This document shows positions 2,620-64,000 of a stretch of 64,000 bases of DNA, one piece after another. The notes under the pieces are model-generated. The model did no database searches. It worked only from the letters and a program-made list of their open reading frames with translations, and was not told where the DNA came from. Positions within the stretch are counted from its first letter, which is position 1. Each line of letters opens with the position of its first letter. This DNA comes from Naegleria gruberi (taxonomy: Eukaryota): NCBI GenBank assembly GCA_000004985.1, contig GG738854.1; one strand, given 5' to 3'. The position numbers and the translations under genes were made by a program.

Positions 2620-3765
2620 TCAATTGAAATTCCTCCACATTCTCTCCAAGGATCGTTTTTCAATAGCATACGGAACTTCAAGAACTCCTCTCAAAATCTT
2701 TAAAATATCAAGACCCATACTGTAATGAACATAAGTTAACAATAAACTATTGATATTGCACAACTTACAATATTCCAATAATTCCTGCAATTTGGCCTAA
2801 AAGACCTTCCATCGTTGAAGTAACCATTTCAGTAATTACATTAACATTCAATGTTGAATAAGCAACTGAAATTACCACTTCATCTCCATCGAATTGAGTT
2901 AATTCCACGATGGATAACTGAGGATGCCATCTCACTGAATTAATTCCTCCTTCGGTATTTGGTTTTAGTCTATTTGTGATAACCTTTGTCAAGATGAAAT
3001 AATTGTCCACTCCAGAAATTGCATAATTGGTCTCTGCAAATACATTAGGTACTGTTCCAGTTTCGTGAAAAGAAACTTGCAAACCAAATCTTGAATCTCT
3101 ATTTTCAGGAACAAAAGGGACATGAAAATAGAATGAAATAGTTCCTGCATATCCAATATCAGTAGCTTAAATTGTGAATGAGATTTTTCCTTGCTCGTTA
3201 ATCACTTACCATTCAAAAGTGATTGGCTCACATTATTGAATACATAACAATTGAACAATTGACCATTCTGAAAAAGCACAACTCTATCATAATGAGGATC
3301 CAAATTTTCCACAATTCCCAATGTAGAATTCACTTTCGTTGCAAACTTTAACGTTAAATTACAATAATCACAATCCAACATTGCATTCCAGTTACAAACA
3401 GTAATAGCTGGAAACGGTAAAGGAACTGACTCGATAAATGTTGTGGCTGTTGTTGGATTACTAATACTCTGCACAAATTGTTCGGAAGAGTCAACAATAT
3501 ACCATATACACATTGCTGTTGCTATGAACCACCCAATGCATGTTATTGCTCTGCTCACCTTAGTGTACATCCATGTTTTCTTCTTCTTTTTCCTCCGTTC
3601 TTGAAGTGTTTGCTGTATTTGCTGAATTTGCCTCACTTGTTCCATTCTGATTTCGGAATCCTGCACTCCATCATCACACACAGGACCTACTTGAACCTGA
3701 ATCCCAGACAACGTCTCGAACGTTGTAGAATTGGAACATTTCTCCTCCTCATTGTTTGTTGCCAT
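2620..3765 (-). CDS. DEG/ENaC/ASIC-like cation channel subunit, short form of about 350 aa, in 3 exons: 3765..3210, 3165..2769, 2719..2620.
   Basis: TM1 is ITCIGWFIATAMCIWYIV, followed by the post-M1 motif FPAITVCNWN (compare ENaC FPAVTICTLN). The pre-M2/M2 region EGLLGQIAGIIGIFMGLDILKILRGVLEVPYAIEK resembles ASIC [30 protein letters not shown]. Introns are 3166..3209 (GTAAGT...TTTAAG) and 2720..2768 (GTAAGT...TTACAG). The stop at 2620-2622 lies 5 bp from the stop of the convergent kinase gene. Confidence 0.7.
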
Positions 3766-3928: not shown

Positions 3929-4948
3929 TAATTAAAGTTATCCCAAACTCTTCGTATTGACCGATGTTTCACAGAATAGGGAATTACAAGAATTCCTCTT
4001 AGAAATTTCAATACATCCAATCCCATACTATCAACAAGCAAAAATTACAAAGCCAACTCTTAATAATAAACTTACAAAATTCCAACCATGCCAGCAATTT
4101 GCCCTAACAACCTTCAACGAAGTTGTGTAAATTTCTGAAATTTGTCTCAAATTCATAGAAGCATAAGCTACCGAAATAACAATGATATCATCATGTGTAT
4201 CGGTGAGTTCTATAAAGGACAATACTGATTCCCAACGAACCGAATGTAAGCCATCTTCTTTCGTTGGTTTCAATCTTGTGGTTAACACTTTTGTAACAGA
4301 AAAGAAATTGTCTACATTTGGAATGGCAAAGTTTGTCTCTGAAAAAACATTTGGCACAGTTCCAATCTCATGAAATGAAATTTGCAGACCGAATCTTCCA
4401 TCCAAACTCTGGGGCACGAGAGGGAGCTTAAAGTAGAATGTTAAAGTTCCAGAATATCCAACATCCTTTGCTGTTTCGAATGAGAATTATCCGCATAAAT
4501 TCAAATACGAACCTTCAACAGGATTCATCGACCTATTATTAAATACTAAACATTGAAATGGCTGTTCGTGCTGAACTACCACCTTACTATCATATTCCAT
4601 TGTGTAATTCTCCACAAAACCAGTTTCACTATTCACTCTCGTCAAGTGTTCCAAAGAAAGGGAGCAAAACTCACAATCATGCAAAGCATTCCAATTACAA
4701 ACAGTCATTGCAGGATAATATAAAGGAACCGAATCAACATAGGATGTTGCTGTGGTCGGATTTTCAAGTGCCGAGATGAAATTCGTTATTATATGAATAG
4801 GCAATATAAAATCCACAAACTCCCATCGCCACAATCCATCCAGCCATTGTGATTAATTCTCCAAAGTGAGGCAATCTGATACTCCAGTTTTTCCTTAATT
4901 GTGTCCATTTACTTTTATTAAGGGTGCCCTGCAAATTGGTATTATTTC
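3929..4948 (-). pseudogene. Tandem paralogue of the DEG/ENaC-like gene with the same 3-exon layout, but with apparent frameshifts. Probably a pseudogene, or an assembly indel error.
   Basis: The conserved blocks are spread over three reading frames at the 5' end: MDTIKEKLEYQIASLWRINHN, then GWIVAMGVCGFYIAYSYNNEF, then ISALENPTTATSYVDSVPLYYPAMTVCNWN. Exon 2 ends ...GAAGGTTGTTAGGGCAAATTG where the intact copy has GAAGGTCTTTTAGGCCAAATTG. That is a 1-nt deletion, which puts a TAG in the conserved frame. Exon 3 (FMGLDVLKFLRGILVIPYSVKHRSIRRVWDNFN*) is intact but out of phase with exon 2. Confidence 0.6.
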
Positions 4949-5340
4949 CTATTGTCTGATGATTAAGTTGATGATGATGATTATTATTGAATAATTTTCG
5001 TGATGATGAAGATGACGACCATGATGATGATGATTGATGATGTGATGAGGTGCCTTCTTTGGCGACCTTCCAACCTCTATATAAACACTATCTGAACTGA
5101 GAATCGACTTGTCTCTTCTTGGAAACGAAGTGTGCATTTTTTTGAGTGTTGTTAAGGGAAGTTTGAATACGGATTTGGAGTTCCATAGCCATAACTGAAA
5201 CATTGTTGTAGAAAGAAAATTCATTTCTTGGGTTATGATATATTGGTGAAGATGAATTGGAGGGTTGCTGCTTATTCCAGATGTCTACAACCAGCACACT
5301 ATGGAAAGAATATAAAAGAATAATTTTTTAAATATGCGAA

Positions 5341-5425
5341 GCTCATATAGCTCAGTGGTAGAGCATTTGTCTTATGAGAACTTAAGGTTAGCAGATGGCC
5401 GAGGGTTCGACCCCCTCTATGAGCA
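5341..5425 (+). tRNA. Intron-containing tRNA with a canonical cloverleaf. The anticodon loop is CUUAUG|A, giving anticodon UAU, which suggests tRNA-Ile(UAU). Position 37 is G, which is unusual. The intron is about 13 nt, located 3' of position 37.
   Basis: Acceptor stem GCTCATA pairs with TATGAGC, with discriminator A. D arm is GCTC-AGTGGTA-GAGC. Anticodon stem TTTGT/GCAGA has two G-U pairs. T arm is GAGGG-TTCGACC-CCCTC. The variable loop is 5 nt. There are 36 nt between the D arm and T arm where 22-23 are expected, so the extra is an intron. Confidence 0.6.
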
Positions 5426-5781
5426 GTTCAAATTTTTTGCTTTTTAGTAGTGTTAAAGATTTATTAGAAGATTTCAATTCCAATTAATTAGCTCCAATCT
5501 TTTGTAGAGAATAAGAAATCTTTACGAGGTTGTTTTTGAGAATACTTTCTCTTGACTACCATGGAATGCGAATCTCTTTGATTCCACTTCATACTGGTAA
5601 CCTGAATATTGTCCAACTTGTTTTTAAGTGGTTTGTCAGATACGTGGTGTAAATAGGGTTCGTCCTGGCCAAATGACTTTCCAGATGAAGATCTGCCAGA
5701 AGAGCTCCAAGGAGACAATTGTCCAAAACGAAAGCTTTGTAAAGAGATTAGGTTAGGTAATATAAAGCAAAAAATTTGAAC

Positions 5782-5866
5782 TGCTCATAGAGGGGGTCGA
5801 ACCCTCGGCCATCTGCTAACCTTAAGTTCTCATAAGACAAATGCTCTACCACTGAGCTATATGAGC
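5782..5866 (-). tRNA. Second, identical copy of the intron-containing tRNA (UAU anticodon), convergent with the first copy.
   Basis: This is the exact reverse complement of 5341..5425. It lies inside a perfect inverted repeat of about 140 bp. Confidence 0.6.
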
Positions 5867-6059
5867 TTCGCATATTTAAAAAATTATTCTTTTATATTCT
5901 TACCCATTCAACTTTTCTTGTCTCTTTATGGTTTGATGCTACATTTCAGAACCAACATTCATTCCTTTCTGGCCAGAATAAAAATTTAGAAAGATTATTT
6001 GATGAAATTGTTTACAAATTTAATGTAATCATCAATTTGTTCGTTTCAAAACAAAAAAA

Positions 6060-7244: not shown

Positions 7245-9025
7245 ATGACAACAAACAATCGCACGAAAATTATTTATTGCACAACTTTGTTGGTCGTTGT
7301 GCTCTCGTTAATGATGACGGTTGGAGTGCAAGGAGCCGATGATTTATTTCTCGTTGTTCGTCCATCATCATCTTCCCCAATGAAGAGAAGTTTGGATTCA
7401 TTTTACATGTTGCCAAAGGCTAAAATTAATCTTCTCGGAGGAGATGAAGTACATGCTCATGTACACTATGATGAGACAACTAACAAGACTGGGTGGGCCT
7501 TGTTGAGTCTTACAACAAATCCTGATGAAACAGATGCTGATCAAGCTTTTGCTGCTGGTTTTGTTGAAGGTATGTTGTTGGTAAAATGGAATTCATCAAT
7601 ATTCATGGAAATCATTTGAATGCACAGGTTATGTAACTGCCAATTTAATGGAAACCTATTGGCCTGGATTTAACAATGCAAGCTATACTCCAAGTTTGGA
7701 TCCTCAACTCAATCAATTTTTGGATGACAATTTACGTTTCATGAGAAGAAAAATTGCTGAATCTAGAAATGGAAATACCAATGAAAAACTTTATTGGACT
7801 CATGTAGGTTTGGTTTTGGATCAAGTTGAAGGTCTCTATGCTGGCTATTTAAAAAAAATGGCTGAACAATTCAAAACACCAACATTGACACTTCTAGAAA
7901 TGCTCAAATTCCAAGTAGCTGCTGACACTGATGACTTGTATTCCAAGTGGCAACCAACAAATTTTGACAATATGAGCAAGGAAGAAATTGAAAAATATAC
8001 ACTCCTTCACACAAGATGCACTGCATTCATCAAGTATAGTGAAGACAAGAAGAATCTTTTCCTTACTCATGCCACCTGGGCTCCTTATCAATACATGTTG
8101 AGAATTTACAAACATTACAGAATTAATTTTAAGGATACACCTGCCAAGTTGGTCAGCTTTTCTTCATCACCTGGATGGTTGGCTAGTGGTGATGATTTCT
8201 ACATTACTAGTGCTGGACTTATTGTTACTGAAACAACAAACTCCATCTATAATCAAACATTGTACAATTATGTTACATCAGAAACTGTATTATATTGGAT
8301 GAGAAATATTGTTGCAAACAGATTAGCCAACTCTGCCAAAGAATGGACTGAACTCTTTGCCAAATATAATAGGTATGTATTTTTAACAAAATGAATGTTA
8401 AATCCAGAACCACTATAGTGGCACTTATAACAATCAATGGATGATTATTGACACTAAGAAATTTGTACCAGGAGCTGATAAATCAGATCCAGAATTATTC
8501 TATATTTTGGAACAAATTCCAGGAGATTGTATGAGTGCTTCAATGAGTCACATTCTCGATGAAAGATATTGGCCATCATTCAATCTTCCTTACTTCTCAT
8601 ATATTTTTAATGTTAGTGGATATCCAGAAAAATTGAAAAAGTATGGAGACTTTTTCAGTTATGACAAGTGTCCTAGAGCTAAGATTTTCAAACGTGATGC
8701 ACCTTCAGTCAATACCATTGAGGATGTCAAGAAATTGATCAGATATAATGACTATCAACATGATCCACTTTCATTAGGAGATGCATGCCATCAAATTGCA
8801 TCCAGATGTGATTTGAATCCTGGAGGCTCAGCATTTGGTGCTATTGATGCTAAAGTTACTGACATTGCCTTTGCTAGAAGAAACTTTGCTTTTGCTCAAT
8901 CTGGACCAACTCACGACCAAGAACCAGTATTCAAGTGGAATAATGTTAATAGCCCAGCTAATCCACATCCTGGACAACCTGTTGAATTTGATTTTAATTG
9001 GGTATCTATGGCTCCAATATATTAA
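7245..9025 (+). CDS. Phospholipase B-like (PLBD-family) secreted protein in 3 exons: 7245..7569, 7628..8372, 8419..9025.
   Basis: Signal peptide MTTNNRTKIIYCTTLLVVVLSLMMTVGVQG. Introns are 7570..7627 (GTATGT...CACAG) and 8373..8418 (GTATGT...TATAG). Splicing restores the conserved FAAGFVEGYVTANLMETYWP and AKYNSGTYNNQWMIIDTKKF blocks. Confidence 0.8.
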
Positions 9026-9135
9026 TTTTATAATATTGAGCTCAAGAGAGAACGATTTGAATTTCCCTTATATTATTAGTAATAAATTTAAAATATAAAA
9101 AAATGCAGAGACTTTAGGTACAAATTCTTGAAAAA

Positions 9136-10326
9136 ATGAGTGAATTGAAAACCATCAAAGATCTGCGTTCCAATTTCACAGCCATCAAAAAGATTGTTCA
9201 GGATGGCGTTGCACAGGAACCTAATTCAAACACTTTAGGCACAATTATACGCTTGTTACAAAAGTATGAATATGATCCGAAAGAATTTTTTGGTACGGAG
9301 AAAGGCATTGATGAATATTCAATGTTGGAATTAAATATTTGTGATGACAGTAGTGAACAGAATATTTGTATGAAAACGATACTGTTGATTAATTCGTTTT
9401 GGTTATTGGAGGTGAAACTTGCTGCTAAGAATGCAAAAGAGTTTCGGCTATTTTTTAATTGCATTGAAAAGAAGGTTTTAACAAAGTTTTTTGATTGCCT
9501 GCAACGAATTTATAGAGAATCAAATGAAGGAGAGCTTAAAGAGTTCACAAGTGGAATGGAAAGTTTGGAGAAATGGCAACAGTTCATTTTACATTTGTAC
9601 ATGTGTATGAATAGTGACATTTATACTGGCGCTAATTCCCTAAATAATATAATGACATCACGTCCAACTATATTATTATCATTAGTGCTTTATCAACATT
9701 TTTCTGAAAAGAAGGAAAAATTCTTGAATGAGAATCCTGGAAAATCATTCAATTTGACAATAACTGAAAATTATCTCCTTTCTACTGCAATTCTTATTTC
9801 TGATGATTATGACCTCGACGAGATGAGTTCAGAATTAAAGCTTACCATGGACCACATTTCAAAAGTGTACATTGAATATTTATACAATTTGGTAGGGTTG
9901 ACCTTTGAACAAGATACTCCAAATCTAGTATCGCTTGGTATTGTTTCTGTGGCCCAACTATCAATACGTAATTGTGATTTTGTTCAAAGATTAATCAAAG
10001 ATGATTACAGAATTATACAAAATACAGAAAATTCAGTTATTATCACAGAAGATTTCATTAGTGAGAAAGTTCCAGACATCCAAAATAAGAAACGAAACCG
10101 TGGCGAAAGTGCTTTGGCGGTCAAAATTAAGCTGTTAACTCTAATTGATATTTTGCTAGATGCTGATTTTGAAGATTTCAATGAAAATCAAAAGGTAGAG
10201 TTTTGTCTGTACTTTAAAGAGTTGATTATTGAATCCCTTAATGATGAAATGATTAATGAGTCGGGAAGTTTAGTCGGTAAACAAGCTGTTGCCACAGCCA
10301 TTAGATCTATCTCAGTTGTTACTTAG
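9136..10326 (+). CDS. Hypothetical protein. It may be the 5' part of one larger gene continuing in the 10384..11712 ORF, because the two are in the same frame and separated only by one TAG.
   Basis: A 396-codon ORF with an ATG after an A-run. There is no recognisable domain. Confidence 0.5.
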   Translation: MSELKTIKDLRSNFTAIKKIVQDGVAQEPNSNTLGTIIRLLQKYEYDPKEFFGTEKGIDEYSMLELNICDDSSEQNICMKTILLINSFWLLEVKLAAKNAKEFRLFFNCIEKKVLTKFFDCLQRIYRESNEGELKEFTSGMESLEKWQQFILHLYMCMNSDIYTGANSLNNIMTSRPTILLSLVLYQHFSEKKEKFLNENPGKSFNLTITENYLLSTAILISDDYDLDEMSSELKLTMDHISKVYIEYLYNLVGLTFEQDTPNLVSLGIVSVAQLSIRNCDFVQRLIKDDYRIIQNTENSVIITEDFISEKVPDIQNKKRNRGESALAVKIKLLTLIDILLDADFEDFNENQKVEFCLYFKELIIESLNDEMINESGSLVGKQAVATAIRSISVVT

Positions 10327-10383
10327 ACTGAGGGTACTATAGATCTTTTATCAGACAATTTTAGGGAATACCTATTTAATATT

Positions 10384-11712
10384 TTGTTCTGGTGTAAGCG
10401 ATTGCTATTTTCCAAAAATAGTACAATTAGAGCAAGAACTTTCCGTTCCCTTTCGGATTTTTTCACTAAAACTAGTTATTATTCTGACGATTTGATGGAG
10501 GCAATTATCAAATCACATGAATTGAATTTAGAGGAGGTACCAGATTATTTTGACATGTTGAGAGGAATTGCCAAAATTATGACAAACGTAAAAATTGGTG
10601 AATCTGTTGCGGAAAGCTTCAAATCCTTAATATTTACCTTATTTGAAAACATTTGTGTGGAAAATTTTTTGGTCAGTTTAAAAAAAACAAATGACGAAAG
10701 GAAGAAAATGCACTATATGAACATTGACAAATTCTTTCGTATGATAGAGGTTACGTATCTCATGATGGTAAATGATATTGACCTATTAGAAAGATTGCTT
10801 GTATTCATTGAAAAACAGACAGAGGTTATGAAGTGCACTTTATCAAGTGACCTTCTTCCATCATTTGCCTTGACCCTTAAAGAAATTATCAAATCAACTG
10901 ATAGAAATACTCTATTGGAGGTGTTTGACCAGCTAGAATATTATCCATTCTTGGTCAATTTTATTTCATTTTACTTTGCTAATGGTGACGCAGATCCAAA
11001 CTTTGAAATGAGTCCAATATTCACATTGTTGGGATGCTTTAGCGATTCCACGATACTGCACACCCATTTTTCCTTTGTTTCTGAGGTACTTGGCGAAGAT
11101 CAAGATTATATCTATGATTTCTTATTGCCAATTATAATCCGTAATGCCATTCTACCAAAATCTGCTTTGGAAACTACTGACCCAGACCAAGCAATATTCT
11201 TTGTAGAAAAGATCAAAGAAGTTCATTATGCACTGAGCAGAATAGTGAGCAATGATATTTTAATTAATGGAGGAGTAATCTCTTCTATGATATTGCAACA
11301 AACTATTGGTCCAATAACTAGTAATGCAACACAACTCAAAGCATTCGATAATCTGGTTGAATCGGATTTACTAAACAAGTACATGGAGAACATGTTCTTT
11401 ACCATGCTTGCTTGTGGAAAGGAGACACTGAAACAGTTCCCCCAACTTGCCAAAATTCTTTCCCATCTGTATGATACTACATATTCAAAGGAATTTCCTG
11501 ATAGTGAGCAATTCTTATTTTCCTCCTTTTTGGAATTAATGGAATACGCAATTGATAATGAAGTTTTAAAAGTTGGATATAATGAATGTGAATGGATGGA
11601 AAATGCTGAAGTAAATATCATTCCCAAATGTAAATCATCTCTGAGATCTCAATGTAAAAGAGTCATTATGAAGATATTGATAGAACTTAAATACGAAGAA
11701 GATAGTGATTGA
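10384..11712 (+). CDS. Hypothetical protein. It is either a continuation of the upstream ORF or an independent gene whose first ATG lies near 10495.
   Basis: Open frame of 442 codons. The first in-frame ATG is 37 codons downstream of the ORF-track start. The 56 codons between the upstream TAG and that ATG contain no stop, which is unlikely by chance at this AT content. Confidence 0.45.
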   Translation: MFWCKRLLFSKNSTIRARTFRSLSDFFTKTSYYSDDLMEAIIKSHELNLEEVPDYFDMLRGIAKIMTNVKIGESVAESFKSLIFTLFENICVENFLVSLKKTNDERKKMHYMNIDKFFRMIEVTYLMMVNDIDLLERLLVFIEKQTEVMKCTLSSDLLPSFALTLKEIIKSTDRNTLLEVFDQLEYYPFLVNFISFYFANGDADPNFEMSPIFTLLGCFSDSTILHTHFSFVSEVLGEDQDYIYDFLLPIIIRNAILPKSALETTDPDQAIFFVEKIKEVHYALSRIVSNDILINGGVISSMILQQTIGPITSNATQLKAFDNLVESDLLNKYMENMFFTMLACGKETLKQFPQLAKILSHLYDTTYSKEFPDSEQFLFSSFLELMEYAIDNEVLKVGYNECEWMENAEVNIIPKCKSSLRSQCKRVIMKILIELKYEEDSD

Positions 11713-12028
11713 TTCTTCTTTTCAAAAAACTATTTAGCAATCTTTTTCATATTAAATCGCTATTGCCTTTTTATGAGATATCAACAAGCAGTCTATTTAT
11801 TACTTGATTTTGTAAAGTTTTTTCTTTTCCTATCATCTTTCTGCTCAAAAAAAATCCACTTTAACTCTTGTTAATTCCATTGGTGAGTAGTGTCGATAGA
11901 TCTGTAAGCGTTTTGGCTCATTAACCTTTTCGTGAGTATCCCCGCCTTAGTTACAATCGCTTTTCCATCGAACCAGTAATCTCCAGTCTGCACTTGAAGA
12001 ACCAAAGTCACGTTGATCTCAAAAAAAA

Positions 12029-14281
12029 ATGTTTAGTAACTGCCATCATCATGATGATGCTGAACGTGTAGTAATTATATTGGACGATCATGACAAATTT
12101 ATGGAACAATTATTGAATAGCAAATATAAACAAGAACGAAATTTATCATGCTACAAACAAATATTAAAATATTTAACTAATACGAGAGGTTTAATATTAA
12201 AGTATTATGAATTACCTGTTATATTACGAAGAGATCGGAGATTCATCACTGAAATTGCACAAACTTTTGAATTTTACCAACAATTACCTGAAGAATTTAA
12301 ATCCGATAAACAAGTAATGCTAAATTGTTTTAAAAAGAAAGTATTTAATGGAAGTGATATTAAGAGTGGATATATTCCCTCTAATTTAATGAATGATAGG
12401 AAATTTATATTGGAATTAATTGAAGGAAATCCAACATGTCTCTATTTAGTACCGAAAGAAAGAGAATTCGTGTTGGCAGCAATGAAACACGATATTATAT
12501 ATTTGGGATTTCTCCCAGGAAGTGAAAAGAAGAATGAATCATACATGTGGGAATTGTTTTTGAAAAATTGGGAAAATTTAAGATTTGCAAGTGGTGAATT
12601 ACTAAATAATCCATCATTTGCTATAAAAGTAAGAAAGCATGATACCAATACTTTCAACTATTATTGTGGACGGCCACATTTGGCGGTTCATGCAAGGGAT
12701 AAATTTCGAAATAATAGAGAATATGTGCTTTTTGCTATTTTACATGGAAAAGCTGATTTTACAATGATAAAAAAGGTATTTCAAGCGGATTTGGAAATTA
12801 AAATGGCAAATAATATTAAAACTGATGCCTCCTTATGGAAATTAAAGGAAGAATGGGCAAATGACAAGGAAATGATTTTGAAATATGTCAAACATAATTC
12901 AAATATATTGAAATTTATTAATTTGGAATTACTACAGGATTATGAATTTAATATTAAATTAATTTACAAAAATATTGAAAGTATTCAATTTATTAATGAA
13001 TGCAATACTAATTTTAAACAATTATTTACACAATCAGATAAAACTGAATTAATTTCTAGATATTTAAGCAACAAAAAATTTAACATTAATTCCAAAATTA
13101 TAAATCCAACTAATATTAGAGCATTTGGTTCCAAAATTAATTATATACATTTTATAGAGGAATATTTAAATGAAAACGATTTAATTTATATAACAAGTAA
13201 TATTGATGGACAAGCATGTTACGGTTTGTTAAACGTAATTTCCAATAAGAAAATTTTCAATGAATGCTTACAATTATGGAAAATAACAGTTAAAAAGCAT
13301 TATTCATGTTATGAATTATTTAATATAAAATATACCAAACAAGATATTATTGAGATAATTTCATCCATGCATGAATCTCCTTTTCCATTCCTGGCACACA
13401 TTGATAGAAATGTATTTAGCTCTGAGAGTGAAGTTCTTCTCATTGCAATTCAAACCCATTTCAAGTGCTTTGAATTGGCAAGTAAAGAACTGAAATCTGA
13501 CTTGAATTTTATTAGAAAGTCAGTCAATTTAAATAGAAATATTATTAAAGTAATAGATTTGCAAATTGTACAAGATAATTTGGATTTATTGATTATTTAT
13601 ATAAATTATAAATTAAAAATCAATACCATGTATGGATATCAAAATAGCGCTCATGCATTAAATCCATTAATTAACATATTAGCAAAACATTTACAAAATG
13701 AGGATACAGTTTTACAATTAGTAGAAATACCCCAATTTGTAAATTTATTTTATGGCCATATAGATATTAATTTAAGATCAAGTGAGGAATTCTGTTTAAA
13801 AATATTAAAAACAGATTTGAATAATGCCACTAAAATTCCAAATTTAATTAAATATAGAAATTTCATAATTGAATTTCTAAAAGAGGGAAAATCCATTACA
13901 TTCATTCCTAAAATATTCGAACAGGATGAGGAATTTTTACATTTATTTTTTAAAAACTGGAATCGTACGGAATACCTTCCAATATTACCAGCGGATGAAA
14001 TTTTTATTGGTATTCTAATTAAGGAATTGAAAATTAACCCATCCATATATAGAAATTTTAATAATAGTGATCCGTTGAAACATAATTGGGATATATTATT
14101 GAATGTTGCCAGAGATGTAAATAGCTGTTTAGTTTTTCCCACCACAATATGGCAAGATGAGAATTTTAAATTGGAACTTGTGAAGAGAGGAATTTTTCCA
14201 CCTTCCTTTTTGAAACATTTTAATAGCATTTTGAACGATATGGATTTGATTGTAGAAAATGGTTTTTACTTGATTCAATAA
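12029..14281 (+). CDS. Asn/Ile-rich repeat protein, hypothetical. Degenerate repeats of about 35 aa resemble DUF4116-type repeats.
   Basis: A 750-codon ORF with ATG after aaaaaaaaa. Recurring blocks: DKQVMLNCFKK, EREFVLAAMKHD, NREYVLFAILHG, DKEMILKYVKHNSNILKFI. Confidence 0.45.
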   Translation: MFSNCHHHDDAERVVIILDDHDKFMEQLLNSKYKQERNLSCYKQILKYLTNTRGLILKYYELPVILRRDRRFITEIAQTFEFYQQLPEEFKSDKQVMLNCFKKKVFNGSDIKSGYIPSNLMNDRKFILELIEGNPTCLYLVPKEREFVLAAMKHDIIYLGFLPGSEKKNESYMWELFLKNWENLRFASGELLNNPSFAIKVRKHDTNTFNYYCGRPHLAVHARDKFRNNREYVLFAILHGKADFTMIKKVFQADLEIKMANNIKTDASLWKLKEEWANDKEMILKYVKHNSNILKFINLELLQDYEFNIKLIYKNIESIQFINECNTNFKQLFTQSDKTELISRYLSNKKFNINSKIINPTNIRAFGSKINYIHFIEEYLNENDLIYITSNIDGQACYGLLNVISNKKIFNECLQLWKITVKKHYSCYELFNIKYTKQDIIEIISSMHESPFPFLAHIDRNVFSSESEVLLIAIQTHFKCFELASKELKSDLNFIRKSVNLNRNIIKVIDLQIVQDNLDLLIIYINYKLKINTMYGYQNSAHALNPLINILAKHLQNEDTVLQLVEIPQFVNLFYGHIDINLRSSEEFCLKILKTDLNNATKIPNLIKYRNFIIEFLKEGKSITFIPKIFEQDEEFLHLFFKNWNRTEYLPILPADEIFIGILIKELKINPSIYRNFNNSDPLKHNWDILLNVARDVNSCLVFPTTIWQDENFKLELVKRGIFPPSFLKHFNSILNDMDLIVENGFYLIQ

Positions 14282-25647: not shown

Positions 25648-26340
25648 TCTACTAGTGTTCTAGGCTACTTTTCAGGCAAAAGACATTTTAGGCTATTATT
25701 TGATGGACAAAAGTTCTTGGTGTTGCCTTGTATGTATTAATAACACCGAACAAATACACGTTCCATTATTTTCCACCATTAAGAAAAAATATTTCAGCCC
25801 AAACACACATTGGGAACACTTTGGTGATTTTCAGAGTGATTTCACCCCATGAATCCACCAAACTTTCACATCATCATCTCAACATCATCCTAATAGTATT
25901 ACTGGTAGTATTTTTTATTATTGGATTGTGATTATAAATTTGGAATTTAATTTTCACTTGGGAAAAATTCAAGTTGGTAAACCATCATCGGAACAACTTC
26001 CAACCATCATCATTGTTATTTATCATCATTATAATAGTAATATTTGTGGAAATAAATCTGATAATAGTAATATTTTAGTGAAATTCAATATTTTCACTAA
26101 AATCATCATCACTGCCAGATTCATATGGTAATTTGGAAAACTTTCAATCTAGTATTGTTCAGCATGGTCGATTCCATCAGGTAAAATCACTTCCGAACAT
26201 TTTCCTATTGGTTATCATCATGATAGGTTCATGTATATTTTCAACATGTACATGGACCATAACTCAACATGTACTTCACCAACTTGGAAAATGTCTTTCA
26301 TAACTACTATTCAAATACATAATAAACAATATATTTATTA
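25648..26340. repeat. Dispersed non-coding repeat, copy A. Identical to the sequence at 63401..64000 and related to the interior of the TIR element at 46372..47784.
   Basis: 25691..26300 matches 63401..64000 base for base (checked over several lines). It contains (CATCAT)n-like tracts. The ORFs over it (25728..25931, 25928..26131) are rejected as spurious. Confidence 0.8.
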
Positions 26341-28024: not shown

Positions 28025-28332
28025 AAACTATTGGAAATGGCATGAGCTGTTAGAACATTGCTTTTTTGATTGTAAACCTTTCCATCGTGTGTAGTGGAAA
28101 GTCAATATTCTCGGCGAACTGTTAATTATTGTGTTACTTTTTACAATTGCTCGTTTCCTAATATTCTTCACGACTTTACAAATTTTTCTTGGTAGATTAA
28201 AAAAGACTGAGATTAAAGGTATCAAATGTTTAGGTTGCACAATTATGTTCTTAGAATTAGTTTGATTTTTATTCCCTTCAGCAGTTAACATAGTCAGTTC
28301 AGGCAGCCAAAAATCCAAGATAAAATTGCAAC

Positions 28333-37914: not shown

Positions 37915-39213
37915 ATGAATAATAATCAAAGATTTGATGTTTTGATTCTCTCCACCATTTTTTCATTTCTTCCCGCCAAAAATTATTTACTGAAAATTTG
38001 TCTTGTTTGTCGAGATTGGAATTTTTCAAATTCTTGTAAAATTAATAATCATGAGAATAATAACGATCAGAATTATCCTCTTCCGATGGTTGCACTTGAT
38101 TTATCCAACCGTAAGATTTTTGATGAAAAATTAGTAAAATTACTTGATGAGCAATTGGATCGGTATGATTGGAGAAATTTGAGAATATTAAATTTGGAGA
38201 AGAATCTTATTGAACGTATTGGTTGTTTGATGGAGACAGGGAGATCGTTGCAATTGAGTAATTTGAGAGTTTTAAATTTGAATGAAAATCAAATTGATGA
38301 GGAGTGTAGTTTGTTGTGTTGTGGTGTGGAAAATTTTATCAATTTGAAGGAATTATATTTGAGAACGAATTTTATTAGAAATATTGTTGTGAGAACGCAA
38401 TTTCCTGCTTTGGAAACGTTGGATTTGAGTGGTAATTGTATTGGAAATCAGGGAGTTGTTTCTTTATTGAAGGATGGTCTTGAAAATTTCCCAAACTTGC
38501 GAAAATTAGTGCTTTCTAATGTGGATATGAAGAGTTTGGATCCATTGCTCATGAATTGCCACAATTGCCCAAAATTGAAATGTTTAGATTTTAGTAATAA
38601 TTTTATTTATAACTCACAAACGATTCATTATAAGCATTTTAATTTTCCATTATTGGATGAGCTATATTGCTCAGCAGTTAATTCTACAGCTCGTTTACAA
38701 GAATTAATTGTGGAAAAATCACTTGATTCCTCCCTCACAACACTTGATTTATCACAATGTTATGTTGGAGAAGTTTTTTTGAAAGCTCTTTCTTTGGGAG
38801 AATTCAAGAAATTGACTAAACTCTTACTATCTAATAATGAAATTGGAAATGAGGAAGTTCTGCTATTGGGAAAACTTGACATGCCGAATCTAGTTCATCT
38901 CAATCTTGATGATAACCTAATTGGATTGGAAGGCGCTAACATCATTTCCAATTTTACTAATTTTCCTCAATTAGAATTTCTTTCCTGTAGAAAATATCCC
39001 GCAACAAAACACAAAACATTTGAAAGTTATTCATTGAATAATTTTCTTGAGGATTGCAGGGAGGAATTGGGAGAGGAATTAGAGGAGGAAGAAGAAGATT
39101 GTGAAGAGGATTATTATGGAGGTTTACGTAATTCGAAAGGAAAGGAAATTAGTTTTGTATCGTCGTTTGTTAGCTTTACTTGGACAAAAAGTGATTATGT
39201 CTATGTCTATTAA
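37915..39213 (+). CDS. F-box-like / RNI-type leucine-rich-repeat protein.
   Basis: N-terminal FDVLILSTIFSFLPAKNYLLKICLVCRDWNF. LRRs: LRILNLEKNLIERIG, LRVLNLNENQIDEE, LETLDLSGNCIGNQGVVSL, LRKLVLSNVDMKSL. Acidic C-terminal tail. Confidence 0.75.
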   Translation: MNNNQRFDVLILSTIFSFLPAKNYLLKICLVCRDWNFSNSCKINNHENNNDQNYPLPMVALDLSNRKIFDEKLVKLLDEQLDRYDWRNLRILNLEKNLIERIGCLMETGRSLQLSNLRVLNLNENQIDEECSLLCCGVENFINLKELYLRTNFIRNIVVRTQFPALETLDLSGNCIGNQGVVSLLKDGLENFPNLRKLVLSNVDMKSLDPLLMNCHNCPKLKCLDFSNNFIYNSQTIHYKHFNFPLLDELYCSAVNSTARLQELIVEKSLDSSLTTLDLSQCYVGEVFLKALSLGEFKKLTKLLLSNNEIGNEEVLLLGKLDMPNLVHLNLDDNLIGLEGANIISNFTNFPQLEFLSCRKYPATKHKTFESYSLNNFLEDCREELGEELEEEEEDCEEDYYGGLRNSKGKEISFVSSFVSFTWTKSDYVYVY

Positions 39214-39290
39214 TGGTTTAGAATAGCAACTGACTGCTATTTTGGTTTGTTTATTCCATCAAATAAACCGACATTTGACTTTAAAAAAAA

Positions 39291-39895
39291 TGAGACAAGA
39301 CAAGATAACATTCAACCCAGATAATTATTGTCTCATCTATGAAGAGGTAATGACATGCCAAGAAACAAGAAATATCTTTAAAGAATTCTTGAAGGAAAAC
39401 ATGGCGGAAGAACCACTTCTTTATTTGGACGAATGTGAAAAGTATAAAGTGGAATATGCCAAGTTGAAAGAGAAATTTAACGGTTTATCTTTGATGGTTA
39501 AAAGAAGTAGTAGTGTAGGAAATGTTTCTGATTTGGGAAACGAGACAAGTGGCAAGGAATGGGATAAAAATCAGTTGACTAAATTATTTGTGAATTTAAA
39601 AGGAATTATTGATGAGTTTATTGTGGAAGAGGCAACTAAGGAGTTGAATTTGTCGGTTAGGAAGTGGACGATAATGGAATGGCAGATAATAGAAGCAATG
39701 ATGAACGGATTCGAACAGGATTCGTCCAATTTTGAACTTTCGAATAATTTGTATAGGAAACTGGATATTAATGTGCTGTTTGAAAAGGTAGATTTAGTGG
39801 TTATGATAGATTTGAAAATGGATCAATTTCCTCGATTTATTCGTTCAAATTTAGCTCGAAAATTTCTATTAGAAAAGGGAGAACATTTCACATGA
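39291..39895 (+). CDS. RGS-domain protein, copy 1. The ORF ends at a TGA that falls at a conserved Arg position when compared with the paralogue at about 56.7-58.3 kb. Homologous sequence continues in frame, and across a 41-nt GTATGT...TTTTAG intron, out to 40296.
   Basis: RGS block: YEEVMTCQETRNIFKEFLKENMAEEPLLYLDECEKYKVEY. Downstream of the TGA the same frame reads TVAIDISKGFKVDLRFKPKDLKDKEINDNHIYFG. That aligns with paralogue RSIAIDVSRGFHVDIRFLPKDLSKNFIYDKDIFFG. The terminal block ELNFRKCLEENCVKYPNRSWYKEWLALKQNPTQF* aligns with LKELVEENLKAHPQKSWYRDYLSLFHNKSL*. Confidence 0.6.
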
Positions 39896-63302: not shown

Positions 63303-64000
63303 TTCTAGGCTACTTTTTTCGCCTGAAAAACAGGCAAAAAATATTTAGGCCAAAAAAAATAGCCTAAAATGTCTAGGCGCAAAATAGTAGGGTGCTTATT
63401 TGATGGACAAAAGTTCTTGGTGTTGCCTTGTATGTATTAATAACACCGAACAAATACACGTTCCATTATTTTCCACCATTAAGAAAAAATATTTCAGCCC
63501 AAACACACATTGGGAACACTTTGGTGATTTTCAGAGTGATTTCACCCCATGAATCCACCAAACTTTCACATCATCATCTCAACATCATCCTAATAGTATT
63601 ACTGGTAGTATTTTTTATTATTGGATTGTGATTATAAATTTGGAATTTAATTTTCACTTGGGAAAAATTCAAGTTGGTAAACCATCATCGGAACAACTTC
63701 CAACCATCATCATTGTTATTTATCATCATTATAATAGTAATATTTGTGGAAATAAATCTGATAATAGTAATATTTTAGTGAAATTCAATATTTTCACTAA
63801 AATCATCATCACTGCCAGATTCATATGGTAATTTGGAAAACTTTCAATCTAGTATTGTTCAGCATGGTCGATTCCATCAGGTAAAATCACTTCCGAACAT
63901 TTTCCTATTGGTTATCATCATGATAGGTTCATGTATATTTTCAACATGTACATGGACCATAACTCAACATGTACTTCACCAACTTGGAAAATGTCTTTCA
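63303..64000. repeat. Dispersed repeat, copy B. It runs to the window end and is identical to copy A from 63401 onward. Its 5' boundary shares gttctaggctactttt with copy A but then carries an extra 55-bp insertion.
   Basis: Base-for-base identity of 63401..64000 with 25691..26290. The ORFs over it (63428..63631, 63628..63831) are spurious duplicates of those in copy A. Confidence 0.8.

What the first reader, a model, noticed from the sequence alone, without database searches (positions are those of the whole stretch)
10300..10500. A single in-frame TAG separates two long ORFs that are co-linear in the same frame
ORFs 9136..10326 and 10384..11712 are in the same frame. Between the TAG at 10324-10326 and the first downstream ATG near 10495 there are 56 stop-free codons, about 1% likely by chance at this AT content. 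This suggests one roughly 850-aa gene with an internal stop. Together with the TGA and TAA cases in the two RGS genes, all three stop codons occur once each as in-frame interruptions in this window, and none has a canonical GT-AG intron that could remove it. Stop codons are otherwise absent from ORFs of more than 1300 codons, so a reassigned genetic code is unlikely. Pseudogenes, assembly errors or occasional readthrough are the alternatives.
Basis: inference. Interest (0 to 1): 0.5.

Follow-up and report, generated by a model that had tools for sequence, protein, structure and literature searches.

The report
Nonsense-mutated gene hidden by fake intron
The in-frame TAG is a single-base change (Leu TTG to TAG) that cuts in two what was one ~858-codon Naegleria gruberi gene for a helical-repeat protein. 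This is ordinary gene decay, which the public annotation hides inside an invented intron. It is not a recoding signal.

Summary
One TAG (10324-10326) separates 402 and 461 stop-free codons in the same frame.

The window is Naegleria gruberi NEG-M. The locus is annotated as NAEGRDRAFT_47133 (790 aa). That model skips the TAG with a 204-nt "intron" (10195-10398).

The intron is not credible:
- It has a GTAGAG donor and an AAG acceptor and is 3-4 times the length of real introns here.
- Its codons match paralogues at about 50% identity on both sides of the TAG.

Four full-length N. gruberi paralogues (788-894 aa) align across both ORFs in one stretch, so this was a single ancestral gene.

A 98.6%-identical environmental relative has TTG (Leu) at the TAG site, and paralogues also have Leu there. 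The same relative carries its own TAA at codon 90, where the window has TTA.

Between the two strains the upstream ORF evolves neutrally (pN/pS 0.95). The downstream ORF is constrained (pN/pS 0.08; Fisher p = 0.011).

Best reading: a lineage-specific nonsense mutation in a decaying member of a Naegleria-specific HEAT-like solenoid family. The C-terminal part may still be functional on its own. The main rival is a base error in the reference. I found no sign of readthrough or recoding. Interest is low.

The parts
9136..10323 (+). Upstream ORF, codons 1-396: the N-terminal half of the ancestral gene. It now ends at the TAG and is evolving neutrally.
   Evidence: ORF. It aligns with the N-halves of paralogues P0002, P0004 and P0005 from residue 3-4 on. 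Compared with the relative there are 4 synonymous, 14 nonsynonymous and 1 nonsense difference, pN/pS 0.95. NEG-M has derived residues at family-conserved positions: Y109C and C/aromatic322R.
10324..10326 (+). In-frame TAG, a nonsense codon derived from TTG (Leu) by T to A at 10325.
   Evidence: The relative's contig L002 has TTG here within a gap-free 2499-nt alignment at 98.56% identity. Paralogues P0002 and P0003 have Leu in this column. In the AF2 model it lies in a loop between helices 379-393 and 407-423.
10327..10494 (+). The 56 stop-free codons between the TAG and the first ATG. This is conserved coding sequence, not a spacer or 5' UTR.
   Evidence: BLASTP against P0002 residues 424-466: 22/43 identical, E = 1e-10. 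The motif CK.L.FS.N...R......L..FF.K..Y.SDDL is shared by the paralogues. The codon score is best in the gene frame.
10495..10497 (+). First ATG downstream of the TAG (Met434). It is a candidate internal start if the C-terminal part is expressed alone (inference).
   Evidence: Sequence. The gene model of paralogue P0006 (455 aa) begins at the equivalent of query residue 442.
10327..11712 (+). Downstream ORF, codons 398-858 plus TGA: the C-terminal half, still under purifying selection.
   Evidence: 7 synonymous and 2 nonsynonymous differences from the relative, pN/pS 0.08, binomial p = 4e-4 against neutrality. The last 315 codons are 100% identical in protein to P0001 from contig L001. This is the best-predicted part of the solenoid, pLDDT 80-90.
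10195..10398 (+). The 204-nt 'intron' of the public gene model NAEGRDRAFT_47133 (EFC47510.1, 790 aa). I judge it an annotation device to skip the TAG, not a real intron.
   Evidence: P0008 equals the window translation minus codons 354-421. The donor is GTAGAG and the acceptor AAG. Validated introns here are 58 and 46 nt with GTATGT...YAG. No GTAAGT or GTATGT occurs on the + strand between 8373 and 15013. GC is 0.338, against 0.327 for the exons. The skipped codons match P0002 at 49% (E = 2e-8) and 51% (E = 1e-10).
9403..9405 (+). Codon 90: TTA (Leu) in the window, TAA in the environmental relative. This is an independent nonsense change in the same gene.
   Evidence: The gene caller split L002 at this point into 89 aa and 450 aa.
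10761..10763 (+). Point where the relative's two contigs stop being collinear with the window. L002 ends at 10761 and the homology of L001 starts at 10763.
   Evidence: L001 has 839 unrelated bases upstream, and a TGA two codons before the ATG of a stand-alone 315-codon ORF.

Best explanation
The two ORFs are the halves of one ancestral gene of about 858 codons in Naegleria gruberi NEG-M, annotated as NAEGRDRAFT_47133. It encodes an all-alpha, HEAT-like solenoid protein from a small Naegleria-specific paralogous family.

Shown:
- In this assembly a single T-to-A change at 10325 turned a Leu codon (TTG) into TAG.
- No credible intron removes the TAG. The public model's 204-nt intron (10195-10398) is a gene-prediction device.
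- Both flanks of the TAG are collinear with the paralogues.
- The substitution pattern differs between the two halves. The part upstream of the TAG has drifted neutrally since this strain and its closest known relative diverged. The part downstream has kept its protein sequence.
- The relative has acquired its own TAA at codon 90.

Inferred:
- Translation from ATG 9136 stops at the TAG and gives a 396-aa fragment.
- The mutation is real rather than a base-calling error.
- The full-length gene is dead or dying.
- The C-terminal module is probably still made on its own, from an internal transcript or start (first ATG at 10495).
For: One ancestral gene:
- The HMMER search of 1.84 billion representatives found only N. 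gruberi proteins. Four are full length and each aligns across both ORFs in one stretch: P0002 (883 aa, query 3-823), P0003 (788 aa), P0004 (894 aa, query 4-858) and P0005 (847 aa).
- The flanks of the TAG match P0002 collinearly: residues 374-410 at 49% (E = 2e-8) and residues 424-466 at 51% (E = 1e-10) (alignment).
- The AF2 model is a continuous helical solenoid across residue 397, with confident helices on both sides. Foldseek finds HEAT solenoids such as transportin and importin-beta at TM 0.45-0.5.

Point mutation:
- Contig L002 is 98.56% identical and gap-free over window 8263-10761, and it has TTG at the site. Paralogues have Leu there.

Not an intron:
- The annotated intron has non-consensus splice sites and length compared with two introns validated by a continuous PF04916 match.
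- The 12-nt GTTGTTACTTAG loses its AG in the relative, yet the frame stays open there.
- The other in-frame GT-AG candidates would delete the conserved motif AV.TAI.SIS.

Relaxed constraint upstream:
- 14 nonsynonymous to 4 synonymous differences. The nonsynonymous fraction is 0.78, against 0.79 expected under neutrality.
- Two nonsense differences were seen, against 1.1-1.7 expected under neutrality.
- Downstream the counts are 2 nonsynonymous to 7 synonymous (p = 4e-4 against neutrality). Fisher test, upstream against downstream: p = 0.011.
- The neighbouring phospholipase B exon has 3 synonymous and 0 nonsynonymous differences.
- Among paralogues the N- and C-halves are equally conserved (0.37 and 0.33 identity to P0002), so the relaxation is recent.
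- NEG-M itself carries derived residues at family-conserved positions (C109, R322).
Against: - There is only one relative, known from two short metagenome contigs. The substitution counts are small (27 in the gene).
- I could not inspect reads, so a base error at 10325 in the reference is not excluded.
- No RNA or protein data were available. Splicing of 10195-10398, internal initiation and readthrough are therefore untested.
- Divergence in the upstream ORF (1.6%) is lower than in the flanking non-coding DNA (10 differences in about 205 nt). Complete neutrality is therefore not proven.
- The downstream comparison joins two contigs (L002 and L001) that are not collinear with the window at 10762. 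L001 could be a second copy.
Confidence: 0.72

Rival explanations
1. Base-calling or assembly error. The true NEG-M codon is TTG, and the gene is an intact 858-codon ORF.
For: The only other sequence of this locus has TTG, and Leu is the family residue. One wrong base is enough. The long open frame on both sides and the constrained C-half fit an intact gene.
Against: The upstream half shows a neutral substitution pattern and NEG-M-derived changes at conserved positions. The relative has an independent TAA in the same gene, so disabling changes are tolerated here. From general knowledge, finished Sanger assemblies have low per-base error rates, so an error that creates a stop in a given gene is a priori rare. 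I did not test this here.
Confidence: 0.17
2. The annotated in-frame 204-nt intron (10195-10398) is really spliced out and gives the 790-aa protein EFC47510.1.
For: It has GT...AG ends and a length divisible by 3, and it is the deposited gene model.
Against: The donor is GTAGAG and the acceptor AAG. Every clear intron in the window has GTAAGT or GTATGT and YAG, with lengths of 41-65 nt. Its GC content is not lower than that of the exons. It is stop-free apart from the one TAG. It encodes segments that are 49-51% identical to paralogue P0002, including confidently predicted helices 361-393 and 407-423 of the solenoid. The relative would not need the intron.
Confidence: 0.05
3. Programmed stop-codon readthrough or local recoding. 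The TAG is decoded, for example as Leu, to give the full-length protein.
For: The downstream ORF is under purifying selection. Both nonsense codons in the two strains sit where the other strain has Leu (TTG/TAG, TTA/TAA). TAG ends no other long ORF in the window.
Against: The stop is not conserved in the closest relative. The upstream half evolves neutrally, so a full-length product is not being selected. The base after the stop is A, and there is no CAR-YYA type context. From general knowledge, a purine at +4 favours termination. There is no unusual RNA structure 3' of the stop (z = -0.26). No suppressor tRNA is in the window, only tRNA-Ile(UAU) x2 and tRNA-Lys(UUU). No other ORF of at least 300 codons contains an in-frame TAG.
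Confidence: 0.03
4. These have always been two separate adjacent genes that happen to share a frame.
For: One paralogue is annotated as two adjacent genes, NAEGRDRAFT_66983 (197 aa, N part) and 66984 (455 aa, C part).
Against: Four paralogues are single proteins spanning both halves. There is no intergenic spacer. The 56 codons before the first ATG are conserved coding sequence. The relative has one open frame through the site. True intergenic DNA nearby is 22% GC, against 27-43% here.
Confidence: 0.02

Closest known systems
Unitary pseudogene or polymorphic null allele created by a premature stop codon
   Same: A single disabling nonsense substitution in an otherwise full-length ORF. Intact paralogues exist. 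A close relative has a sense codon at the site. Constraint is relaxed (pN/pS about 1), and a second, independent nonsense mutation occurs in the relative.
   Different: Only the part upstream of the stop shows relaxed constraint. The 461 codons downstream are still conserved at the protein level, which a fully dead gene should not show.
Gene truncation or fission, with the C-terminal module surviving as its own gene
   Same: The C-terminal ORF is conserved. In the relative's contig L001 its last 315 codons form a stand-alone ORF behind unrelated DNA. A paralogue is annotated as separate N- and C-terminal genes.
   Different: There is no evidence here for an internal promoter, transcript start or protein product. 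The contig L001 junction could come from a second copy or from the assembly.
Annotation-introduced introns that bridge in-frame stops in ab initio eukaryotic gene models
   Same: The deposited 790-aa model differs from the genomic ORF only by an in-frame, 204-nt, GT-AG 'intron' that contains the stop.
   Different: Nothing differs in kind. This is a specific documented instance.
HEAT/ARM alpha-solenoids of the karyopherin-beta size class (transportin, importin-beta)
   Same: The predicted fold is about 40 helices in an extended solenoid of about 850 aa. Foldseek TM is 0.45-0.5 to transportin and importin-beta.
   Different: Identity is 10-12%. There is no Pfam hit and no PDB sequence hit, even with a family profile. 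The family is found only in N. gruberi. No functional inference is justified.
Programmed stop-codon readthrough (for example UAG-CAR-YYA or UGA-CUAG contexts)
   Same: An in-frame stop is followed by a long, conserved, in-frame ORF.
   Different: The stop is not conserved, the context is unfavourable, there is no 3' structure, and the upstream part is not under selection.

Membership tests
Spliceosomal intron (as in the public gene model, 10195-10398) | Donor and acceptor match the local consensus (GTAAGT or GTATGT ... YAG) | tested here: not met
   The donor is GTAGAG and the acceptor is AAG. The validated PLB introns are GTATGT...CAG and GTATGT...TAG. There is no consensus donor hexamer on the + strand between 8373 and 15013.
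Spliceosomal intron (as in the public gene model, 10195-10398) | Length within the local distribution | tested here: not met
   204 nt, against 46 and 58 nt for the validated introns and 41-65 nt for the other clear GTA[AT]GT introns.
Spliceosomal intron (as in the public gene model, 10195-10398) | The sequence is non-coding, with no protein-level conservation | tested here: not met
   The skipped codons match P0002 at 49% (E = 2e-8) and 51% (E = 1e-10). The codon score is positive in frame.
Spliceosomal intron (as in the public gene model, 10195-10398) | Spliced junction observed in RNA | not testable with these tools
   No transcript data were available.
Programmed stop-codon readthrough | The stop codon is conserved in relatives | tested here: not met
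   The relative has TTG. Paralogues have Leu, Lys or Ile.
Programmed stop-codon readthrough | A readthrough-promoting 3' context or RNA structure | tested here: not met
   The context is TAG-ACT-GAG. The 100 nt from the stop fold no better than shuffled sequence (z = -0.26).
Programmed stop-codon readthrough | Purifying selection on both sides of the stop | tested here: not met
   pN/pS is 0.08 downstream but 0.95 upstream.
Reassigned genetic code (TAG as a sense codon) | In-frame TAG recurs in other genes | tested here: not met
   Apart from this TAG, the only single-stop junctions between same-frame runs of at least 100 codons are two much shorter ones (121-228 codons a side; the TAG one, minus-strand 28030, looks like chance). 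ORFs of 1343 and 1385 codons contain no stop.
Reassigned genetic code (TAG as a sense codon) | A cognate suppressor tRNA is present | not testable with these tools
   None is in the window. The rest of the genome was not available.
Pseudogene (disabled copy of a protein-coding gene) | A disabling lesion relative to intact homologues | tested here: met
   TAG at codon 397, against a continuous ORF in four paralogues and in the relative.
Pseudogene (disabled copy of a protein-coding gene) | Neutral evolution (dN/dS about 1) over the whole former CDS | tested here: inconclusive
   Met for codons 1-396 (0.95). Not met for codons 398-858 (0.08). The counts are small.
Pseudogene (disabled copy of a protein-coding gene) | The lesion is real in the organism and not a sequencing error | not testable with these tools
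   No reads were available.
HEAT/ARM-repeat alpha-solenoid | Tandem helical-hairpin solenoid fold | tested here: met
   The AF2 model is all-alpha with about 40 helices and pLDDT 80-90 over residues 330-855. The top Foldseek hits are HEAT solenoids.
HEAT/ARM-repeat alpha-solenoid | Sequence match to a curated HEAT, ARM or karyopherin family | tested here: not met
   No Pfam hit for either half or for paralogues P0002 and P0004. No PDB sequence hit with the protein or with the family profile.

The most novel reading that the evidence does not exclude
Gene fission caught in progress. After independent nonsense mutations in two N. gruberi lineages (TAG at codon 397 here, TAA at codon 90 in the relative), the N-terminal half of this HEAT-like solenoid gene decays neutrally. 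The C-terminal module of 315-425 aa survives as an independently expressed, selected protein. In the relative it sits behind unrelated upstream DNA as a stand-alone ORF. The more exotic reading is that UAR at former Leu positions is read through or decoded. It is not strictly excluded, but I put it at about 3% or less.
Probability: 0.35. Interest if true: 0.35.

Novelty: new member of a known kind. Interest (0 to 1): 0.2.

Why it matters
- It removes a candidate for stop-codon recoding in Naegleria. The TAG is a strain-specific Leu-to-stop substitution.
- It shows that the reference protein EFC47510.1 / XP_002680254.1 (790 aa) is probably an artefact, because its intron deletes 67 conserved residues. 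Models like this can hide pseudogenes in protist proteomes.
- It defines a previously undescribed Naegleria-only family of about 850-aa HEAT-like solenoid proteins (at least 6 loci in NEG-M). At least one member, and perhaps two, is breaking up.
- It offers a small natural example of differential decay of the two halves of a gene.

Tried and rejected
- **Pfam.** Scans of both halves and of two paralogues found nothing.
- **PDB sequence search.** Neither the joined protein nor the family profile found anything meaningful.
- **The search for homologous proteins.** The C-half found only the identical cluster.
- **The look-up of encoding contigs.** There is no record for the window ORFs, P0008 or P0006. 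I therefore could not read the DNA of the split paralogue NAEGRDRAFT_66983/66984. The PLB exon look-up returned only L002 again.
- **JGI metagenome scans.** A protein query and a 31-mer across the site found no further relatives.
- **Literature.** The genome paper (PMID 20211133) is not held. PRJEB11402 is not mentioned in any held paper. I found no paper on in-frame stops in Naegleria.
- **Fold library.** AFDB50 was unavailable.
- **Introns considered and rejected.** The in-frame GT-AG candidates 10277-10342, 10277-10354, 10268-10342, 10288-10326 and 10273-10326 would delete the conserved AV.TAI.SIS motif. The 12-nt GTTGTTACTTAG and a GC-AG candidate (10297-10326) are far below local intron size. 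The relative lacks the AG but keeps the frame.
- **Suppressor tRNA.** The two odd ARAGORN 'tRNA-???' calls turned out to be intron-containing tRNA-Ile(UAU).
- **Readthrough structure.** None was found.
Full report
**1. The observation**

In the frame of ATG 9136 the window has 402 stop-free codons, then TAG at 10324-10326, then 461 stop-free codons to TGA 11710-11712. The first ATG after the TAG is at 10495, 56 codons downstream. From base composition a 56-codon stop-free run has probability 0.0135. Empirically, 3.1% of all stop-to-stop runs in the six frames are that long. A codon-usage log-odds score trained on the other long ORFs stays highest in the gene frame through 10276-10515. The window has only two other places where a single stop separates two same-frame runs of at least 100 codons, and both are much shorter.

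**2. Where the window comes from**

The window is a gene-dense, 33% GC eukaryotic sequence with short introns. The neighbouring phospholipase B gene gives a continuous PF04916 match (positions 2-487 of 487, 541.6 bits) once two introns are removed. These introns are 58 nt (7570-7627) and 46 nt (8373-8418), and both are GTATGT...YAG. The other clear introns in the window also have GTAAGT or GTATGT donors and are 41-65 nt long.

An exhaustive HMMER search with the joined 858-aa translation (X at the stop) found seven proteins. Exact look-up shows that six are Naegleria gruberi proteins. The seventh, P0001, is a metagenome protein whose 90% cluster also holds P0008 = EFC47510.1 / XP_002680254.1 / NAEGRDRAFT_47133 (790 aa). 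P0008 is identical to the window translation except for one internal deletion. The window is therefore N. gruberi NEG-M, and the locus is an annotated 'predicted protein'.

**3. One ancestral gene**

Four paralogues are full length and align with the query in a single stretch that covers both ORFs:
- P0002, 883 aa, query 3-823, 37% identity
- P0003, 788 aa, query 100-844
- P0004, 894 aa, query 4-858
- P0005, 847 aa, query 4-849

In the multiple alignment (A1) the sequence on both sides of the stop is conserved:
- Before the stop: FK.LI.E.L...ESG.L.....I.TAI..IS.
- After the stop: CK.L.FS.N...R......L..FF.K..Y.SDDL..II.SHE.

The second motif lies entirely within the 56 codons that precede the first ATG. 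Pairwise BLASTP confirms this. The 43 codons before the TAG match P0002 residues 374-410 (18/37 identical, E = 2e-8). The 56 codons after it match P0002 residues 424-466 (22/43 identical, E = 1e-10). The two matches are collinear. 'Two independent genes' is refuted.

An AlphaFold2 model built on A1 (mean pLDDT 68; 80-90 over residues 330-855) is an uninterrupted all-alpha solenoid. Residue 397 sits in a loop between helices 379-393 and 407-423. Foldseek against the PDB returns generic HEAT solenoids: transportin and importin-beta at TM 0.45-0.5, and SF3B1, all at 10-12% identity. Pfam and PDB sequence searches find nothing. The family is a Naegleria-specific HEAT-like solenoid of unknown function.

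**4. No intron removes the stop**

The public model removes codons 354-421 as an intron at 10195-10398. That 'intron' has these properties:
- It is 204 nt long and in frame.
- Its donor is GTAGAG and its acceptor AAG.
- Its GC content (0.338) is not lower than that of the exons (0.327).
- It is stop-free except for the one TAG.
- It encodes the conserved segments described above.

It looks like a device used by a gene predictor to step over a stop. There is no GTAAGT or GTATGT on the + strand anywhere between 8373 and 15013.

Other in-frame GT...AG pairs that I read from the sequence (10277-10342, 10277-10354, 10268-10342, 10288-10326, 10273-10326) would delete the conserved AV.TAI.SIS motif. 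The 12-nt GTTGTTACTTAG is far below local intron size. Its AG is absent in the relative, where the frame nevertheless stays open.

**5. What the codon was**

The metagenome assembly ERZ929261 (run ERR1078381) holds two contigs from a close relative.
- L002 (2499 nt) aligns to window 8263-10761 without a single gap at 98.56% identity. At the TAG site it reads TTG.
- In A1 the X column holds Leu in P0002 and P0003, the two paralogues most similar to the query by HMMER score, and Lys and Ile in the other two.

The TAG is therefore one T-to-A step from an ancestral Leu codon.

**6. The gene is decaying, unevenly**

L002 has its own in-frame TAA at codon 90, where the window has TTA.

Codon-by-codon comparison of the window with L002 and L001:

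| Region | Synonymous | Nonsynonymous | Nonsense | pN/pS |
|---|---|---|---|---|
| Codons 1-396 | 4 | 14 | 1 | 0.95 |
| Codons 398-858 | 7 | 2 | 0 | 0.08 |
| Adjacent PLB exon | 3 | 0 | 0 | 0.00 |

- For codons 1-396 the nonsynonymous fraction is 0.78, against 0.79 expected with no selection.
- For codons 398-858 the binomial test against neutrality gives p = 4e-4.
- The Fisher test between the two halves gives p = 0.011.
- With 67 'nonsense sites' upstream and a pS of 0.017-0.025, neutrality predicts 1.1-1.7 nonsense differences. Two are seen, one in each strain.

Among paralogues the N- and C-halves are equally conserved (for example 0.37 and 0.33 identity to P0002). The N-half is therefore not intrinsically unconstrained.

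Polarising with the paralogues suggests derived changes at conserved positions in both lineages:
- NEG-M: Y109C, C/aromatic322R and the stop at 397.
- The relative: E366G, I499M and the stop at 90.

**7. The C-terminal part**

L001 (1987 nt) matches window 10763-11712 at 99.7%, with 3 differences, all synonymous. Its first 839 nt are unrelated to the window. There is a TGA two codons before the ATG of a stand-alone 315-codon ORF, and a 104-nt insertion directly after the stop codon. L002 ends at 10761, exactly where the L001 homology begins. I cannot tell whether this is a rearranged locus, a second copy or an assembly effect.

A further paralogue is annotated as two adjacent genes: NAEGRDRAFT_66983 (197 aa, N part) and 66984 (455 aa, starting at the equivalent of residue 442). 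Together with the low pN/pS downstream, this suggests that the C-terminal module can function, and is still made, on its own. That step is inference. No transcript or protein data were available.

**8. Readthrough and recoding**

I found nothing that supports these.
- The stop is not conserved in the relative.
- The upstream half is not under selection.
- The context is TAG-A. From general knowledge, a purine at +4 favours termination, and the known UAG-CAR-YYA motif is absent.
- The 100 nt from the stop fold no better than shuffled sequence (z = -0.26).
- The window's tRNAs are two intron-containing tRNA-Ile(UAU) and one tRNA-Lys(UUU).
- Apart from this TAG, only two much shorter same-frame single-stop junctions exist in the window.

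**9. Verdict**

Best explanation (about 0.72): a lineage-specific nonsense mutation (TTG to TAG) in a former single gene. The N-terminal half is now neutral, and the C-terminal half is still constrained and possibly expressed alone.

Rivals:
- A base error in the reference: about 0.17.
- The annotated intron is real: about 0.05.
- Readthrough or recoding: about 0.03.
- Two original genes: about 0.02.

This is an ordinary kind of event. Its practical lessons are that the deposited 790-aa protein is probably wrong, and that the window offers no evidence for unusual decoding. Literature context: Naegleria is described as mainly a heterozygous diploid (PMC9928731), so a heterozygous null allele is a realistic variant of the main explanation.

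Noticed in passing
window 5306-5449 and 5758-5901 (tRNAs at 5341-5425 + and 5782-5866 -): Two identical tRNA genes lie in a 144-nt inverted repeat (98.6% identity). ARAGORN calls them 'tRNA-???'. Rfam scores them as tRNA at 61 bits. Read by hand, they are tRNA-Ile(UAU) with a 13-nt intron after position 37. They are not suppressors.
   Followed up: yes
window 25696-26300 and 63396-64000: An exact 605-nt direct repeat (100% identity) runs to the end of the window. It could be a segmental duplication or an assembly duplicate. Its extent beyond the window is unknown.
   Followed up: no
L001 1-839 and 1790-1893; window 10761-10763 and 11712: The relative's contig carries the last 315 codons of the gene behind 839 nt of unrelated DNA. 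That DNA includes the 5' end of a divergent His/Ser-rich ORF on the other strand. The contig also has a 104-nt insertion immediately after the stop codon. L002 ends exactly where the L001 homology starts.
   Followed up: partly
window 9403-9405 (L002 1141-1143): The environmental relative has TAA where NEG-M has TTA (codon 90 of the same gene). Both nonsense codons in the two strains are T-to-A changes at the second position of Leu codons.
   Followed up: yes
proteins P0007 and P0006 (NAEGRDRAFT_66983 / 66984, same 820-kb scaffold): Another member of the family is annotated as two adjacent genes covering only the N part (197 aa) and the C part (455 aa). It may be a second broken paralogue. Its DNA could not be fetched.
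   Followed up: partly
window 4487-4489, minus strand (genes at about 4031-4834 and 2620-3765, minus strand): Two tandem paralogous multi-exon genes lie here. In the downstream copy an exon ends with GTAAGT (3209). At the equivalent place the upstream copy has GATAAT and an in-frame TAA, which suggests a degenerate donor or a pseudogene.
   Followed up: partly
window 28028-28030, minus strand: A TAG separates 133 and 228 stop-free codons in the same frame. The downstream ORF begins just after it with a signal-peptide-like start (MKFNTILLLLSVLAIA...). The upstream run is therefore probably chance.
   Followed up: partly
window 37915-39895 (+): An LRR plus RGS-domain gene is split into two ORFs in different frames at 39211-39242. 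There is no GTAAGT or GTATGT donor nearby, and I did not resolve how the two parts are joined.
   Followed up: no
whole window: Stop-free runs of at least 300 codons end with TAA 16 times, TGA twice and TAG once. The single TAG is the one studied here. This is a strong TAA preference.
   Followed up: partly
window 12029-14281 (+): A 750-aa ORF with five DUF4116 repeats lies in the most AT-rich stretch of the window (GC 0.258 over 12001-14000). The exact protein is not on record in the assembly collection.
   Followed up: no
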